Of a DNA stretch of 64,000 nt, positions 17,422 through 19,896 are shown in pieces (position 1 is the first letter of the stretch; each line of letters opens with the position of its first letter). Under the pieces are notes generated by a model. The model did no database searches, was not told the DNA's origin, and saw only the letters and a list, made by a program, of their open reading frames with translations. A program made the position numbers and the translations under genes. Origin of the DNA: Nitrososphaerota archaeon (GTDB lineage Archaea; Thermoproteota; Nitrososphaeria_A; Caldarchaeales; Calditenuaceae); NCBI GenBank assembly GCA_038845265.1, contig JAWBQR010000001.1, positions 104,081-168,080 on the forward strand, read 5' to 3'.

Positions 17422-18444
17422 ATGAGACTGGTCTTTAGAGTAGCTTCTGGTACTGGGCCGGCGACAAAGGAGGTCTATAAACTACTCAATGACCTGAAGC
17501 TCGATTCACCGGTCGTAACTACTCTAGTCGGATACAGCATCGAAGATTCAGACATCGTAATCGTGGTTGGAGATGATAAGACAATCCTTAGGTCAATATT
17601 TGAGTTGGGGAATAGGGGGGTTCCAGTGCTTGGTGTCAGTGAGGACCCTACGAGGGGCTTCTTATCTCAATGTACCATAAATGAGCTGAGATATGCAATC
17701 AATAATATTCAGAAGGGAATGTATTCCGTTGAGGAAAATACTAGACTCGAAGTCAGGGTTGATGATGACAAGGTGGTTCCAGCAGTTAATGAGGCAGCTA
17801 TATTCCCCCACATTAGCGCTACCTTGATGGAGTATACATTATCGATTAATGATGAGATGATTTGGCGAGATTATGCAGATGGAGTAATAATAGCTACACC
17901 GCTAGGGTCCAGTGCATATTCGCTCTCAGCTGGAGGCTCATTAATTCATCATGACGCACCAGTATTTGAGATAGTGCCCGTCAACTCTATAGACATTACT
18001 AGGAGACCATTAATCGTTCCTAATAATTCCGTCATCACGATCGATGGTGTATCTTCAAGGCACGGAGTCGAAGTCGTAATTGACGGCCTCGCGAGACTAC
18101 CAGTCAAGGAGAGAATAGCGATTACTAAGAATGAGGTGCCTTGCAGATTTATACATGTGGACGGGCCATCGTCTATCTTGAGCAAGATCGAGAAGAAGAT
18201 TCATTTGGCTGAGGAGCTCCTCCGAATACCACCATCAGCTAAGCTAATCATTAAGATATTAGAATATGAGGGGCCCCTAACCTATAGAGACCTCGTTAAG
18301 AGAACAATGTTGCCTGAGAGAACTATACGTCACGCATTGAATGTATTAGTCTCGCGCAGGCTCGTTGCTAAGAAGCCATTGCTCAGAGATGCGAGACAGA
18401 AGTTATACTATTTACCAACTCATCTCTCTAGCTTTAATCGATGA
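17422..18444 (+). CDS. NAD kinase-family protein with C-terminal winged HTH
   Basis: NE motif, DGVIIATPLGSSAYSLSAGG; C-terminal PPSAKLIIKILEYEG...ERTIRHAL wHTH. Confidence 0.85.
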   Translation: MRLVFRVASGTGPATKEVYKLLNDLKLDSPVVTTLVGYSIEDSDIVIVVGDDKTILRSIFELGNRGVPVLGVSEDPTRGFLSQCTINELRYAINNIQKGMYSVEENTRLEVRVDDDKVVPAVNEAAIFPHISATLMEYTLSINDEMIWRDYADGVIIATPLGSSAYSLSAGGSLIHHDAPVFEIVPVNSIDITRRPLIVPNNSVITIDGVSSRHGVEVVIDGLARLPVKERIAITKNEVPCRFIHVDGPSSILSKIEKKIHLAEELLRIPPSAKLIIKILEYEGPLTYRDLVKRTMLPERTIRHALNVLVSRRLVAKKPLLRDARQKLYYLPTHLSSFNR

Positions 18445-18498
18445 AATGGTCTCTTGAGAAGCAAGATATATTTAATCCCCGATGACTAATTATTCTTG

Positions 18499-18559
18499 GT
18501 GATGATACCGACCTGCACTGAGAGCCATCGGCTCTTTGAAGAGCATGTCTCCTCGCTGA
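18499..18559 (+). ncRNA. C/D box small RNA
   Basis: Box C GTGATGA (18499), 12-nt guide, D' CTGA (18518), hairpin GAGCC-ATC-GGCTC, C' TTGAAGA (18536), 13-nt guide, D CTGA (18556). TATA-like ATATTTAA about 25 nt upstream. Confidence 0.8.
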
Positions 18560-18579
18560 ATAGTGGTCGGTGAGCCTGA

Positions 18580-18858
18580 ATGATCTTCGAATTTTTTGGC
18601 CCAGCCAGGTCATATGCTGGACTAAAGTCACTTACTGTTAAGATTAATGAGCCACTCTTTCTTAGAGAGGCTTTGAAGCTTCTTCCAGAGCCCATCAGAG
18701 GATTAATTATAGATGAGGAGGGAAATGTCAGGTCCGGGATGTTGATTCTTGTAAATGACGTGGATGCTCGTAGTGTCTATGGATTTAACATACAGGTAAG
18801 GGATGAGGACAAAGTCACCATTATACCTTTGATTCATGGAGGAGTTTTGTCTTGTTAG
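18580..18858 (+). CDS. Urm1/SAMP/MoaD-family ubiquitin-like protein
   Basis: LILVNDVD core and Urm1-like IPLIHGG, followed by VLSC. Confidence 0.85.
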   Translation: MIFEFFGPARSYAGLKSLTVKINEPLFLREALKLLPEPIRGLIIDEEGNVRSGMLILVNDVDARSVYGFNIQVRDEDKVTIIPLIHGGVLSC

Positions 18859-19391
18859 TCTCTAGGTACAGGGAATACTGCATGGCCGTCGTTATTGTTG
18901 ACAATATAGTGAATGACCCATTTGAGGTCGTCGAGAAATTCATACCTACGGATGAATTCTCAGTCCAGTTTATTGATCCTCGGAGCATCTATACTTATCG
19001 ACAGTTAATCGTGGGATTTATGGGTGCAGTAGATGCCTATCGAGTAAATGGGCAGCGAGCAAAGAAATTTGAGGTCGAGTTTCTGCTGAGGTTCTCTGGA
19101 AAAACCCAGATCAATGAGGCGATCGAGGCAGTTGGTTATAGGAAGGGAGATAGGAGTGTCTGCGTCTGTGTATTCATGAAGGATGAGAGTAAGATTGGAG
19201 AGGTGGTTCAGAAGATTGCAGAGCATCTCGGCGGAACGATCTCCGAGGAGATAGAGAGGGGGACCCTTAAAAATGTCCTAGAGCTTTATGGCATCTCCAT
19301 TAATGAGTTAGAAGTTCTTGCGCCTTCCCGCGAGGTGAAGCCTGGCGAGTTGCTGATACTGGAGAGAATAGCTATGAGTGGCCTAGCATGA
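18852..19391 (+). CDS. cgi121: KEOPS complex subunit Cgi121
   Basis: AKKFEVEFLLRFSGKTQINEAIE and C-terminal LILERIA. Confidence 0.85.
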   Translation: MLVSRYREYCMAVVIVDNIVNDPFEVVEKFIPTDEFSVQFIDPRSIYTYRQLIVGFMGAVDAYRVNGQRAKKFEVEFLLRFSGKTQINEAIEAVGYRKGDRSVCVCVFMKDESKIGEVVQKIAEHLGGTISEEIERGTLKNVLELYGISINELEVLAPSREVKPGELLILERIAMSGLA

Positions 19392-19449: not shown

Positions 19450-19896
19450 ATGGCGCGGATGCATGCGAGAAAGAGGGGTAAGTCGAGGTCCAATAGGCCC
19501 TTAAGCAAAGATTCTCCAGAGTGGGTAAAGGTCACGCCGGAGGAGGCCGAGGCCCTCGTAGTCAGGCTGGCTAAGGAGGGGACGCCTCCAAGTAAGATTG
19601 GAGTAATTCTAAGAGATATTTATGGGATACCGCTCATAACCCAAGTAACTGGAAAATCAATTACCCAGATACTTCAGGAGAATAATCTTTTGCCAGAGAT
19701 ACCGGAGGACCTGGCTAACTTGATCGAGCGGGCTAGACGGATGCAGCTACATCTATCAACTCACAGGTCTGATAGATACAACAAGAAGCGGCTCCAGCTG
19801 GTCGAGGCTAAGATCCATAGGCTCGTCAAGTACTACACGAGGATCGGAAGAATACCTAAAGACTTTAAGGTAAAGACGCTTTATACATATGCCTAA
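19450..19896 (+). CDS. rps15: 30S ribosomal protein S15 (uS15/S13e)
   Basis: MARMHARKRGKS, IPEDL, KIHRLVKYY. Confidence 0.97.
   Translation: MARMHARKRGKSRSNRPLSKDSPEWVKVTPEEAEALVVRLAKEGTPPSKIGVILRDIYGIPLITQVTGKSITQILQENNLLPEIPEDLANLIERARRMQLHLSTHRSDRYNKKRLQLVEAKIHRLVKYYTRIGRIPKDFKVKTLYTYA

What the first reader, a model, noticed from the sequence alone, without database searches (positions are those of the whole stretch)
18465..18582. Unannotated C/D-box sRNA forming the leader of urm1-cgi121, with a guide complementary to the urm1 ribosome-binding region
Seen: a full C-D'-C'-D arrangement (18499-18559) ending 20 nt before the urm1 ATG, with a single TATA-like element upstream. The D' guide segment ACCGACC (18507-18513) is the perfect complement of GGTCGGT (18565-18571), which overlaps the GGTGA SD (18569-18573). 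Established: L7Ae binds C/D kink-turns and can regulate archaeal mRNAs through leader kink-turns. Inference: a switch in which L7Ae/Nop5/fibrillarin assembly or sRNA excision controls translation of a unit linking 2'-O-methylation, Urm1-type sulfur relay and KEOPS t6A. I could not assign trans targets (expected UGCAGGUCGGUA and CGAGGAGACAUGC). A 7-bp match can also arise by chance.
Basis: partly seen in the sequence, partly recalled or inferred. Interest (0 to 1): 0.7.

Follow-up and report, generated by a model that had tools for sequence, protein, structure and literature searches.

The report
Conserved rRNA-methylation guide RNA before urm1
This is a genuine small guide RNA of the kind that directs methylation of ribosomal RNA, sitting just ahead of two tRNA-modification genes in a group of hot-spring archaea; its match to the next gene's ribosome-binding site looks incidental.

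Summary
Window 18499-18559 (+) is a complete box C/D sRNA (C, 12-nt guide, D', hairpin, C', 13-nt guide, D). A strict motif scan finds it twice in the 1.37-Mb genome and never in 10 random genomes. A covariance model finds it in 69 of 76 genomes of the order.

The D' guide pairs 11/12 with the organism's own 16S rRNA (helix 34; G1160, E. coli A1197 equivalent). Guide and rRNA co-vary across families (12 of 13 genomes). In relatives the D guide matches the opposite strand of helix 34 perfectly. In this lineage it has drifted.

Comparative evidence supports the "leader of urm1-cgi121" reading. sRNA, urm1 and cgi121 stay together in 33 of 50 loci (10 of 15 genera). Spacers are mostly 10-36 nt, and the TATA-like box sits about 27 nt before the C box. 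No RNA data were available.

The 7-bp guide:RBS complementarity is real (shuffle P about 0.01-0.02) and is kept in 3 of 3 genomes of the genus. It is absent from most relatives and disfavoured in folding. rRNA targeting explains why the guide itself is conserved. The proposed switch is not supported. This is a new member of a known kind.

The parts
18466..18475 (+). TATA-like box (ATATATTTAA) of the sRNA promoter. The implied transcription start is about 18496-18498, 1-3 nt before the C box.
   Evidence: sequence. GCAA-ATATAT-TA-TCCC is kept in 3/3 genomes of the genus; across 50 loci the A+T fraction peaks at 0.80-0.86 at positions -29 to -26 from the C box. The start site is inferred from the usual archaeal TATA-to-start distance (established knowledge); it is not measured.
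18499..18505 (+). Box C (GUGAUGA)
   Evidence: UGAUGA is invariant in 11/11 aligned sequences.
18506..18517 (+). D' guide (UACCGACCUGCA, 12 nt). It pairs with own 16S rRNA 1157-1167. The fifth nucleotide before D' (C18513) faces G1160.
   Evidence: 11/12 Watson-Crick pairs, duplex -22.4 kcal/mol, next best -16.6. (the 11-mer is unique to 16S in the genome). (guide/rRNA covariation). (G1160 = E. coli A1197).
18518..18521 (+). Box D' (CUGA)
   Evidence: It is CUGA in 11/11 genomes of the two closest genera and CGGA, CCGA or CAGA in other families.
18522..18534 (+). Hairpin between D' and C' (GAGCC/GGCUC stem, AUC loop). It gives the internal C'/D' motif a closed stem instead of a short loop.
   Evidence: in the MFE structure. 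(one pair switches G-C to A-U in 3 of 11 sequences); 36 of 50 loci have a spacer of 13 nt or more with a predicted stem; 14 of 50 have a 6-10 nt spacer without one.
18536..18542 (+). Box C' (UUGAAGA; both GA steps kept)
   Evidence: TGA.GA is invariant in 11/11 sequences.
18543..18555 (+). D guide (GCAUGUCUCCUCG, 13 nt). This is a drifted version of an ancestral guide against the 5' strand of 16S helix 34. No clean target exists in this genome.
   Evidence: best rRNA/tRNA matches are 9 WC + 2 GU of 13, or 6+5 bp around a 2-nt target bulge at 16S 1004-1016; relatives carry CAUGCACCUC, the exact complement of 16S GAGGUGCAUG. CATGTCTCCTC is invariant in 11/11 sequences.
18556..18559 (+). Box D (CUGA)
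   Evidence: Invariant in 11/11 sequences.
18565..18571 (+). GGUCGGU: a 7-nt complement of the D' guide and a partial copy of the 16S target. It overlaps the Shine-Dalgarno GGUGA (18569-18573).
   Evidence: (P = 0.012 / 0.021). TGGTCGGTGA is invariant in 3/3 genomes of the genus while its flanks vary, and it is not kept in most relatives.
18580..18858 (+). urm1-like gene (92 aa, ThiS/MoaD/Urm1 beta-grasp)
   Evidence: Pfam Urm1 E = 1.5e-07, ThiS E = 2.4e-06. Orthologues align from residue 1.
18852..19391 (+). cgi121 (KEOPS subunit). Its start overlaps the end of urm1 by 7 nt.
   Evidence: Pfam CGI-121 E = 5.7e-13. It follows urm1 in relatives.

Best explanation
Window 18499-18559 encodes a genuine archaeal box C/D guide RNA. 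With L7Ae, Nop5 and fibrillarin, all encoded in this genome, its D' guide pairs with 16S rRNA 1157-1167. It directs 2'-O-methylation of G1160 (E. coli A1197 equivalent) on the 3' strand of helix 34, next to the decoding site.

The ancestral RNA was a dual guide for both strands of helix 34. Its D guide faces the G that precedes UGCAUGG (own G1010, E. coli C1051 equivalent). In this genus and its sister genus the D guide has gained a nucleotide and diverged. It can pair there only around a bulge, so it is probably a weak guide or only a folding helper.

The RNA has its own TATA promoter, which starts transcription at or just before the C box. There is no room for another promoter in the 20 nt before urm1, and no T-run there. 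urm1-cgi121 is therefore most likely expressed by read-through from the sRNA promoter, with the sRNA as the 5' leader. The sRNA would then be released by trimming around the protein-protected core.

The 7-bp match between the D' guide and the urm1 ribosome-binding region is a genus-level feature with no demonstrated role. It is most likely a coincidence helped by the GGU of the Shine-Dalgarno motif.

Shown: motif, conservation, rRNA complementarity and covariation, synteny, promoter position, presence of the protein genes. Inferred: methylation itself, transcription start, co-transcription, processing.
For: - Motif beyond chance: 2 hits in the genome against 0 in each of 10 random genomes.
- Conservation: blastn matches end exactly at the C and D boxes in 10 of 18 family genomes. 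Covariance model R1 finds it in 69 of 76 genomes of the order, nearly always as a single hit.
- Both guides and all four boxes are invariant in 11/11 sequences while the flanks diverge.
- Target: 11/12 Watson-Crick pairs with own 16S, 12/12 in G001. Duplex energy is -22.4 kcal/mol against -16.6 for the next best rRNA/tRNA site. The 11-mer occurs nowhere else in the genome on either strand, apart from the antisense of the guide itself.
- Covariation: 16S GGTCGGTA goes with guide CCGACC in 6 genomes, and GGTCAGTA with CTGACC in 6 genomes. Twelve of 13 genomes keep a Watson-Crick pair at that position; G002 has a C.A mismatch.
- D guide ancestry: in f2 and most of f3 it is CAUGCACCUC, the perfect complement of the invariant 16S GAGGUGCAUG. 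MAGs labelled Nitrosocaldus and Archaeoglobaceae, and an uncultured archaeon, carry RNAs with the same two guides.
- Helix 34 assignment by alignment to E. coli 16S. The weak Rfam hit to snR56 shares the guide core GACCUG and its register to D'. snR56/Gm1428 and snR40/Gm1271 are both helix-34 sites in yeast (PMC2794176, passages).
- Proteins: fibrillarin, Nop5 and L7Ae genes are present.
- Leader: sRNA, urm1 and cgi121 are linked in 33 of 50 loci, covering 10 of 15 genera. Spacers are 10-36 nt in 27 loci. The flanking genes (NAD kinase, rps15) are not kept with them.
- Promoter: an A/T-rich box is centred about -27 from the C box across 50 loci.
- Terminator: 30 of 33 linked loci have no run of 5 or more T within 25 nt after the D box.
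- The general phenomenon is in print: sRNA genes less than 25 nt from ORFs, processed from longer transcripts (PMC7994747, passages; PMC6009581, passages).
Against: - No RNA evidence was available. No listed run is on record as RNA with confidence. The one contig that bridges 18371-19147 comes from a library labelled metatranscriptomic but flagged 'probably DNA', and a contig cannot show a single transcript.
- Neither methylation nor the transcription start was measured.
- The D guide has no acceptable target in this genome, and its 13-nt spacer departs from the usual 12. Yet it is invariant in 11/11 genomes, which drift alone does not explain.
- G002's rRNA mismatches its guide at one position.
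- TGGTC, just upstream of the Shine-Dalgarno motif, is invariant in 3/3 genomes of the genus while its flanks vary. This hints at selection that 'coincidence' does not account for.
- There is no terminal stem next to the C and D boxes in this lineage.
- The sRNA is unlinked from urm1 in 17 of 50 loci (family f4 and genus g2), so the linkage is not obligatory.
Confidence: 0.8

Rival explanations
1. In the primary transcript the D' guide pairs in cis with GGUCGGU and masks the Shine-Dalgarno motif of urm1. Assembly of L7Ae/Nop5/fibrillarin, excision of the sRNA, or competition by nascent 16S rRNA (which carries the better target) frees or blocks the site. This would tie Urm1/KEOPS expression to ribosome biogenesis.
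For: - The 7-bp complement exists and is unlikely in shuffled spacers: P = 0.012 for the D' guide and 0.021 for either guide.
- TGGTCGGTGA is invariant in 3/3 genomes of the genus while the flanks vary.
- Weaker echoes occur in G004 (6 bp) and G011 (6 bp).
- The leader element is a partial copy of the rRNA target, so competition is conceivable.
- L7Ae regulation through leader k-turns is established in S. acidocaldarius (PMC5539422, passages).
- Lui et al. speculate that an unexcised 5' sRNA could block initiation (PMC6009581, Discussion passage).
Against: - Twenty-two of 27 tightly linked loci have only 2-4 complementary bases, including 7 of 8 in the sister genus and 0 of 15 in families f2 and f3.
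- The consensus fold shows no such helix.
- Predicted pairing probability is about 0 at 37 C, 0.01 at 60 C and 0.14-0.17 at 75 C. Forcing the helix costs 8.0, 5.4 and 3.5 kcal/mol. The whole leader folds no better than shuffles (z = -0.92).
- The pairing starts exactly at the methylation position and has no pairs on the D' side.
- Relative to the C/D k-turn the pairing is a pseudoknot, which these folds cannot score.
- The Shine-Dalgarno motif supplies GGU for free, so the shuffle P is optimistic.
- rRNA targeting fully explains why the guide is conserved.
Confidence: 0.08
2. Regulation without guide pairing. The sRNP assembled on the 5' leader, only 10-36 nt from the start codon, sterically hinders the small subunit, or caps the 5' end and protects the mRNA from 5'-to-3' decay. 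Each transcript would then be partitioned between sRNA production and urm1-cgi121 translation.
For: - The unit sRNA-urm1-cgi121 is kept in 33 of 50 loci and 10 of 15 genera, while neighbouring genes change.
- Spacers are short: 10-36 nt in 27 loci.
- In naked-RNA folds the Shine-Dalgarno motif is paired with the D box and the end of the D guide (18552-18559 with 18567-18574). Protein binding to the D box would therefore change its accessibility.
- Precedent for L7Ae control at leaders (PMC5539422) and the speculation in PMC6009581.
Against: - There are no expression or binding data.
- The linkage was lost in family f4 and genus g2 (17 of 50 loci) without visible replacement, so it is dispensable.
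- Four linked loci have spacers of 129-311 nt.
- Conserved adjacency can result from shared promoter use alone.
- The D box/SD pairing shows no covariation, and the fold is not better than shuffles.
Confidence: 0.2
3. Two independent units that merely abut. The sRNA is made as a short transcript, and urm1-cgi121 is transcribed from an unrecognised start inside or after the sRNA, or by read-through from the NAD kinase gene.
For: - The bridging contig in a possibly RNA library begins at 18371, inside the NAD kinase gene and upstream of the TATA box.
- All 3 genomes of the genus have a T6 run within 35 nt after the D box, at 18592-18597 here, which could end a short sRNA precursor.
- Compact genomes pack genes tightly.
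Against: - The 30 nt before the ATG are the G+C-rich D guide and D box, with no A/T-rich box at about -27.
- The same tight spacing recurs in many genera whatever the upstream gene is.
- The T6 run lies inside the urm1 reading frame, so termination there would also end urm1 expression from any upstream start.
Confidence: 0.12

Closest known systems
Archaeal dual-guide box C/D sRNAs, especially those whose two guides address opposite strands of one rRNA helix (for example N. equitans sR15 and sR17; Dennis et al. 2015, PMC4644070, section 11 read)
   Same: The C-D'-C'-D layout, the 12-nt D' guide and the fifth-nucleotide rule are shared. The targets lie in a functional rRNA region. In relatives the two guides match the 5' and 3' strands of 16S helix 34, which is the pattern proposed to chaperone helix formation.
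   Different: No Rfam family reaches its cut-off. In this genome the D spacer is 13 nt and its match to helix 34 is interrupted. The D'-C' spacer is a 13-nt hairpin instead of the usual short loop. The clade (records labelled Caldarchaeales/'Aigarchaeota') has no described sRNA set in the library searched: 1 paper holds both 'Aigarchaeota' and 'box sRNA', a general review seen only in the listing.
Yeast snR56 / human U25 (18S Gm1428 / Gm1490) and yeast snR40 / human U32 (Gm1271 / Gm1328)
   Same: Both eukaryotic sites are in helix 34 of the decoding centre (PMC2794176 Table 1 passage). The snR56 Rfam consensus shares the guide core GACCUG at the same distance from D', so the same G of CAG*GUC is addressed. 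In relatives the D guide faces the G before UGCAUGG. From recall of the yeast sequence, that is the snR40 position.
   Different: In eukaryotes the two sites are served by two separate snoRNAs; here one RNA serves both. The Rfam score is 17.4 bits against a cut-off of 54, so this is functional equivalence and not demonstrated homology. The yeast-to-archaeon position match rests partly on recalled sequence and was not aligned here.
Archaeal C/D sRNA genes that abut or overlap protein genes and mature from longer transcripts (Tripp et al. 2017, as cited in PMC7994747; Lui et al. 2018, PMC6009581)
   Same: [quoted passage not shown] The association with orthologous genes is conserved.
   Different: Here the sRNA lies wholly in the leader, does not overlap the ORF, and carries the promoter itself. 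The partnership with urm1-cgi121 spans three of the order's four families. No paper in the library holds 'Urm1', 'box sRNA' and 'archaea' together (0 papers). Tripp et al. 2017 itself was not read.
L7Ae autoregulation through a k-turn in the l7ae 5' UTR (Daume et al. 2017, PMC5539422, passages; Huang et al. 2019, PMC6298567, listing and abstract start only)
   Same: A k-turn-forming element lies in a 5' leader close to a Shine-Dalgarno motif, in an archaeon that encodes L7Ae.
   Different: In l7ae the Shine-Dalgarno motif flanks the k-turn bulge directly. Here the D box ends 9 nt before GGUGA, and the element is a full methylation guide with an rRNA target. No binding or reporter data exist.

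Membership tests
Archaeal box C/D sRNA | Box C (RUGAUGA) near the 5' end and box D (CUGA) near the 3' end | tested here: met
   GUGAUGA at 18499-18505 and CUGA at 18556-18559. Both are invariant in 11/11 relatives.
Archaeal box C/D sRNA | Internal D' and C' boxes that retain the GA steps | tested here: met
   CUGA at 18518-18521 and UGAAGA at 18537-18542. TGA.GA is invariant in 11/11.
Archaeal box C/D sRNA | Guide spacers of about 10-12 nt between C and D' and between C' and D | tested here: inconclusive
   The D' spacer is 12 nt (met). The D spacer is 13 nt in this genus and its sister genus and 12 nt in other families.
Archaeal box C/D sRNA | At least one guide with 8 or more contiguous pairs to rRNA or tRNA, paired at the fifth position before D or D' | tested here: met
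   The D' guide makes 11 contiguous Watson-Crick pairs with 16S 1157-1167, including position 5 with G1160. The D guide fails in this genome but is met in relatives.
Archaeal box C/D sRNA | Guide co-varies with its target across species | tested here: met
   A G-to-A change in 16S is matched by C-to-T in the guide. Twelve of 13 genomes keep the pair.
Archaeal box C/D sRNA | L7Ae, Nop5 and fibrillarin are encoded by the organism | tested here: met
   PF01248, PF01798 and PF01269 matches are all above their cut-offs.
Archaeal box C/D sRNA | A stable RNA of about 50-70 nt is made, and the target is 2'-O-methylated | not testable with these tools
   No reliable RNA run holds the locus. No modification data exist.
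Any Rfam C/D family (snoPyro_CD, snR56 and others) | Score at or above the family's gathering threshold | tested here: not met
   Nothing passes at gathering thresholds. The best scores are 17.4 bits against a cut-off of 54 (snR56) and 14.3 against 45 (snoPyro_CD).
L7Ae-controlled leader k-turn (Daume 2017 type) | A k-turn strand overlaps or directly flanks the Shine-Dalgarno motif, so that L7Ae binding masks it | tested here: not met
   The D box ends at 18559 and GGUGA begins at 18569. The spacing varies from 10 to 311 nt among relatives.
L7Ae-controlled leader k-turn (Daume 2017 type) | L7Ae binding lowers translation of the downstream gene | not testable with these tools
   This needs a gel-shift and a reporter or toeprint assay.
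   Six or more pairs occur in 5 of 27 tightly linked loci (genus 3/3, G004, G011). The other 22 have 2-4 pairs. The consensus fold has no such helix.

The most novel reading that the evidence does not exclude
Through most of the history of the Caldarchaeales, the helix-34 methylation guide has served as the obligatory 5' leader of the urm1-cgi121 mRNA. Occupancy of that leader by L7Ae/Nop5/fibrillarin would report spare ribosome-biogenesis capacity, and would set the translation or stability of a tRNA-thiolation carrier and a KEOPS (t6A) subunit. In the window's genus the leader has additionally evolved a decoy of the 16S target (GGUCGGU over the Shine-Dalgarno motif). Nascent 16S rRNA and the urm1 ribosome-binding site would then compete for the same guide.
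Probability: 0.08. Interest if true: 0.65.

Novelty: new member of a known kind. Interest (0 to 1): 0.3.

Why it matters
It adds a well-supported, previously unmodelled guide RNA to a poorly studied thermophilic clade and assigns its target. That target is a decoding-centre position in 16S helix 34, apparently the same position that eukaryotes methylate with snR56/U25. This is a useful data point for how old that modification is.

The report also documents a long-lived physical coupling of an rRNA-modification guide to two tRNA-modification genes. That coupling gives a concrete, testable case for an open question raised by Lui et al. 2018: what happens to translation when an sRNA sits unexcised at the 5' end of an mRNA.

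The specific riboswitch-like mechanism that made the finding look exciting is not supported.

Tried and rejected
- RNA evidence: the look-up of sequencing runs listed no holder on record as RNA. I laid two libraries labelled metatranscriptomic but flagged 'probably DNA', together with two DNA runs of the same study. One 777-nt contig spans 18371-19147. It says nothing about transcripts, ends or strand. The parts without cover are not evidence.
- D-guide targets: a scan of own 16S, 23S and 43 tRNAs gave nothing better than 9 WC + 2 GU of 13.
- The candidate at 16S 1434-1443 was rejected because the site changes in the sister genus while the guide does not.
- The one perfect genomic complement, at the start codon of an FtsX-like permease on contig C4, was rejected. 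The match is not kept in G002 or in three genomes of the sister genus, and the protein was not found in G001. About 0.65 such hits are expected by chance.
- The exact complement of the family-f4 D guide occurs at or below control frequency in 5 genomes.
- The 'class' search returned the same 76 genomes as the 'order' search and added nothing.
Only the archaeal rows were followed up.
- Pair counting for the D'-C' hairpin on the model-fitted 50-sequence alignment was inconclusive, because the spacer length varies (50% of cells paired). I rely instead on the 11-sequence alignment and on per-sequence folds.
- T-runs as terminators show no consistent pattern between linked and unlinked loci.
- The search of earlier findings was not open.
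- Supplements were not opened. The Additional files of Dennis 2015 and Table S7 of Lui 2018 may already list helix-34 guides or conserved sRNA-gene pairs in other archaea.
Full report
**1. What is in the sequence**

- GTGATGA (18499-18505), then a 12-nt spacer TACCGACCTGCA, then CTGA (18518-18521).
- A 13-nt hairpin GAGCC-ATC-GGCTC (18522-18534), then TTGAAGA (18536-18542).
- A 13-nt spacer GCATGTCTCCTCG, then CTGA (18556-18559).
- Twenty nucleotides follow, then the ATG of a 92-aa ORF at 18580.
- ATATATTTAA lies at 18466-18475.
- ACCGACC (18507-18513) is the exact complement of GGTCGGT (18565-18571), which overlaps GGTGA (18569-18573).

Pfam names the neighbours: NAD kinase (17422-18444), an Urm1/ThiS-type protein (18580-18858), CGI-121 (18852-19391) and ribosomal protein S15 (19450-19896). 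An in-frame TGA directly precedes the urm1 ATG, so the ORF cannot reach into the RNA.

**2. Is it more than chance?**

A strict C-D'-C'-D regular expression gave 2 hits on both strands of the 1.37-Mb genome, this one included. It gave 0 hits in each of 10 first-order Markov random genomes. The other hit (contig C5) also has an upstream A/T box and a D' guide with 10 contiguous pairs to 23S rRNA. The organism therefore uses such RNAs. Fibrillarin, Nop5 and L7Ae are all encoded.

Rfam has no family for this RNA at gathering thresholds. In E-value mode only weak C/D hits appear: snR56 at 17.4 bits and snoPyro_CD at 14.3 bits.

**3. Conservation**

- blastn of 18440-18860 against 40 relatives matched in 10 of 18 genomes of the family. 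In the sister genus (8/8) the match begins and ends at the C and D boxes.
- In an 11-sequence alignment all four boxes and both guide cores are invariant, while the flanks and the hairpin loop vary. One hairpin pair switches from G-C to A-U in 3 sequences.
- A covariance model built from these sequences found the RNA in 69 of 76 genomes of the order, almost always once per genome. The 'class' search returned the same 76 genomes.
- Named public records that carry the motif are MAGs labelled Caldarchaeales, Caldarchaeum, Terraquivivens and 'Aigarchaeota'.
- RNAs with the same two guides also occur in MAGs labelled Nitrosocaldus and Archaeoglobaceae and in an uncultured archaeon.

**4. The trans target**

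The D' guide pairs with the organism's own 16S rRNA at 1157-1167: 11 of 12 Watson-Crick pairs, with only the position next to D' unpaired. In G001 the match is 12 of 12. Duplex energy is -22.4 kcal/mol, against -16.6 for the next best site among 16S, 23S and 43 tRNAs. The 11-mer occurs nowhere else in the genome except as the antisense of the guide.

By the fifth-nucleotide rule (established; restated in PMC7994747), C18513 faces G1160. Alignment to E. coli 16S places G1160 at A1197, on the 3' strand of helix 34.

Guide and target co-vary. Six genomes with 16S GGTCGGTA have the guide CCGACC. Six with GGTCAGTA have CTGACC. One (G002) has a C.A mismatch. So 12 of 13 genomes keep the pair.

The snR56 consensus shares GACCUG at the same register to D'. 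snR56 guides yeast Gm1428 (human Gm1490) in helix 34 (PMC2794176).

**5. The D guide**

In this genome it has no acceptable target. The best matches are 9 WC + 2 GU of 13, or 6 + 5 pairs around a 2-nt bulge at 16S 1004-1016.

Relatives explain this.
- In families f2 and most of f3 the guide is CAUGCACCUC, the perfect complement of the invariant 16S GAGGUGCAUG on the 5' strand of helix 34.
- Family f4 has one mismatch, and so does genus g3.
- The window's genus and its sister genus carry an extra nucleotide and two changes.

The ancestral RNA was thus a dual guide for both strands of helix 34. This is the pattern Dennis et al. proposed for chaperone-like sRNAs (PMC4644070, section 11). The ancestral target G (own G1010) is E. 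coli C1051. From recall it corresponds to yeast Gm1271 (snR40), also in helix 34.

One point stays unexplained: the drifted guide is nevertheless invariant in 11/11 genomes.

**6. Leader of urm1-cgi121?**

- Of 50 loci examined (30), 33 have urm1 and/or cgi121 directly downstream on the same strand. These cover 10 of 15 genera.
- The 17 loci without it are family f4 (12) and genus g2 (5).
- Spacers from the D box to the start codon are 10-36 nt in 27 loci and 129-311 nt in 4. Two loci with only a cgi121 hit were not measured.
- Flanking genes are not kept. NAD kinase is adjacent only in the genus, and rps15 varies in presence and orientation.
- Across all 50 loci, A+T peaks at 0.80-0.86 at -29 to -26 from the C box. 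That is the usual place of an archaeal TATA box for a start at or just before the C box.
- The 30 nt before the urm1 ATG are the G+C-rich D guide and D box. No run of 5 or more T lies within 25 nt of the D box in 30 of 33 linked loci.

Co-transcription from the sRNA promoter is therefore the most economical reading, but it is inferred.

The only possibly-RNA data are contigs from libraries flagged 'probably DNA'. One contig bridges 18371-19147, which proves nothing.

The general phenomenon is in print. sRNA genes lie less than 25 nt from ORFs and are processed from longer transcripts, and only about 20% have their own TATA motif (PMC7994747). Lui et al. discuss excision from mRNAs and possible interference with initiation (PMC6009581).

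**7. The guide:RBS pairing**

In favour:
- Shuffling the 23-nt spacer gives 7 or more pairs with P = 0.012 for the D' guide and 0.021 for either guide.
- TGGTCGGTGA is invariant in 3/3 genomes of the genus while the surrounding spacer varies.
- G004 and G011 show 6-bp echoes.

Against:
- Twenty-two of 27 tightly linked loci show only 2-4 complementary bases.
- The consensus fold has no such helix.
- The leader folds no better than shuffles (z = -0.92).
- Pair probabilities are about 0 at 37 C, 0.01 at 60 C and 0.14-0.17 at 75 C. Forcing the helix costs 8.0, 5.4 and 3.5 kcal/mol.

In these folds the Shine-Dalgarno motif pairs instead with the D box and the end of the D guide (18552-18559 with 18567-18574). 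There is no covariation to support that either.

The leader element is a partial copy of the rRNA target, and the Shine-Dalgarno motif contributes GGU for free. Relative to the C/D k-turn the cis helix would be a pseudoknot, which the folding tools cannot score, so it is not excluded.

I rate the switch at about 0.08. A pairing-independent effect of the sRNP on translation or stability rates about 0.2.

**8. Verdict**

This is a new member of a known kind: an archaeal dual-guide C/D sRNA co-located with protein genes. Two modestly new points emerge.
- Its target is the archaeal counterpart of a conserved eukaryotic decoding-centre methylation.
- Its coupling to urm1-cgi121 is long-lived. No paper in the searched library holds 'Urm1', 'box sRNA' and 'archaea' together.

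Interest: 0.3.

Noticed in passing
own genome, contig C4:75317-76808 and contig C2:140923-144751 (outside the window): The 16S and 23S rRNA genes lie on different contigs, each well inside its contig, so they appear unlinked. The 23S match spans 3829 nt for a 2987-position model, which suggests large insertions or introns.
   Followed up: no
window 17422-18444 (+): The NAD kinase carries a C-terminal helix-turn-helix of the RPC82/HTH_9 type (residues 276-315, 23.5 bits against a cut-off of 23.4). This is an unusual fusion, if it is real.
   Followed up: no
window 18846-18858 (+): The Urm1-like protein ends ...HGGVLSC, so the diglycine is followed by four residues, and the ORF overlaps the TTG start of cgi121 by 7 nt. 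Most relatives align only up to residue 88, the second glycine, so this tail is mostly not conserved.
   Followed up: partly
window 18592-18597 and 18606-18611 (+): A T6 run lies in codons 5-6 of urm1; all 3 genomes of the genus have a T6 within 35 nt of the D box. CAGGTC lies inside the ORF and is a second 6-nt complement of the D' guide, seen only in this genome.
   Followed up: partly
own genome, contig C5:101663-101714 (+), outside the window: This is a second clean box C/D sRNA with an upstream AAATTTAAATAA box. Its D' guide makes 10 contiguous pairs with 23S rRNA near position 1822.
   Followed up: partly
L014 (G013:C13:18981-19037, minus strand): One relative holds a partial second copy of the sRNA with its upstream flank. 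The C box is broken and the sequence after the D box is unrelated. This may be a decayed duplicate or an assembly variant.
   Followed up: no
own genome, contig C4 near 3009 (minus strand), outside the window: The only perfect genomic complement of the D guide covers the Shine-Dalgarno region and ATG of an FtsX-like permease gene. It is not conserved in four relatives, so I take it as chance.
   Followed up: yes
L174, L160, L158 (named MAG records): MAGs labelled Nitrosocaldus and Archaeoglobaceae, and an uncultured archaeon, carry C/D sRNAs with the same helix-34 guide pair. They are not next to urm1, and in two of them T-runs follow the RNA. The guide pair is therefore older than the gene linkage.
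   Followed up: partly
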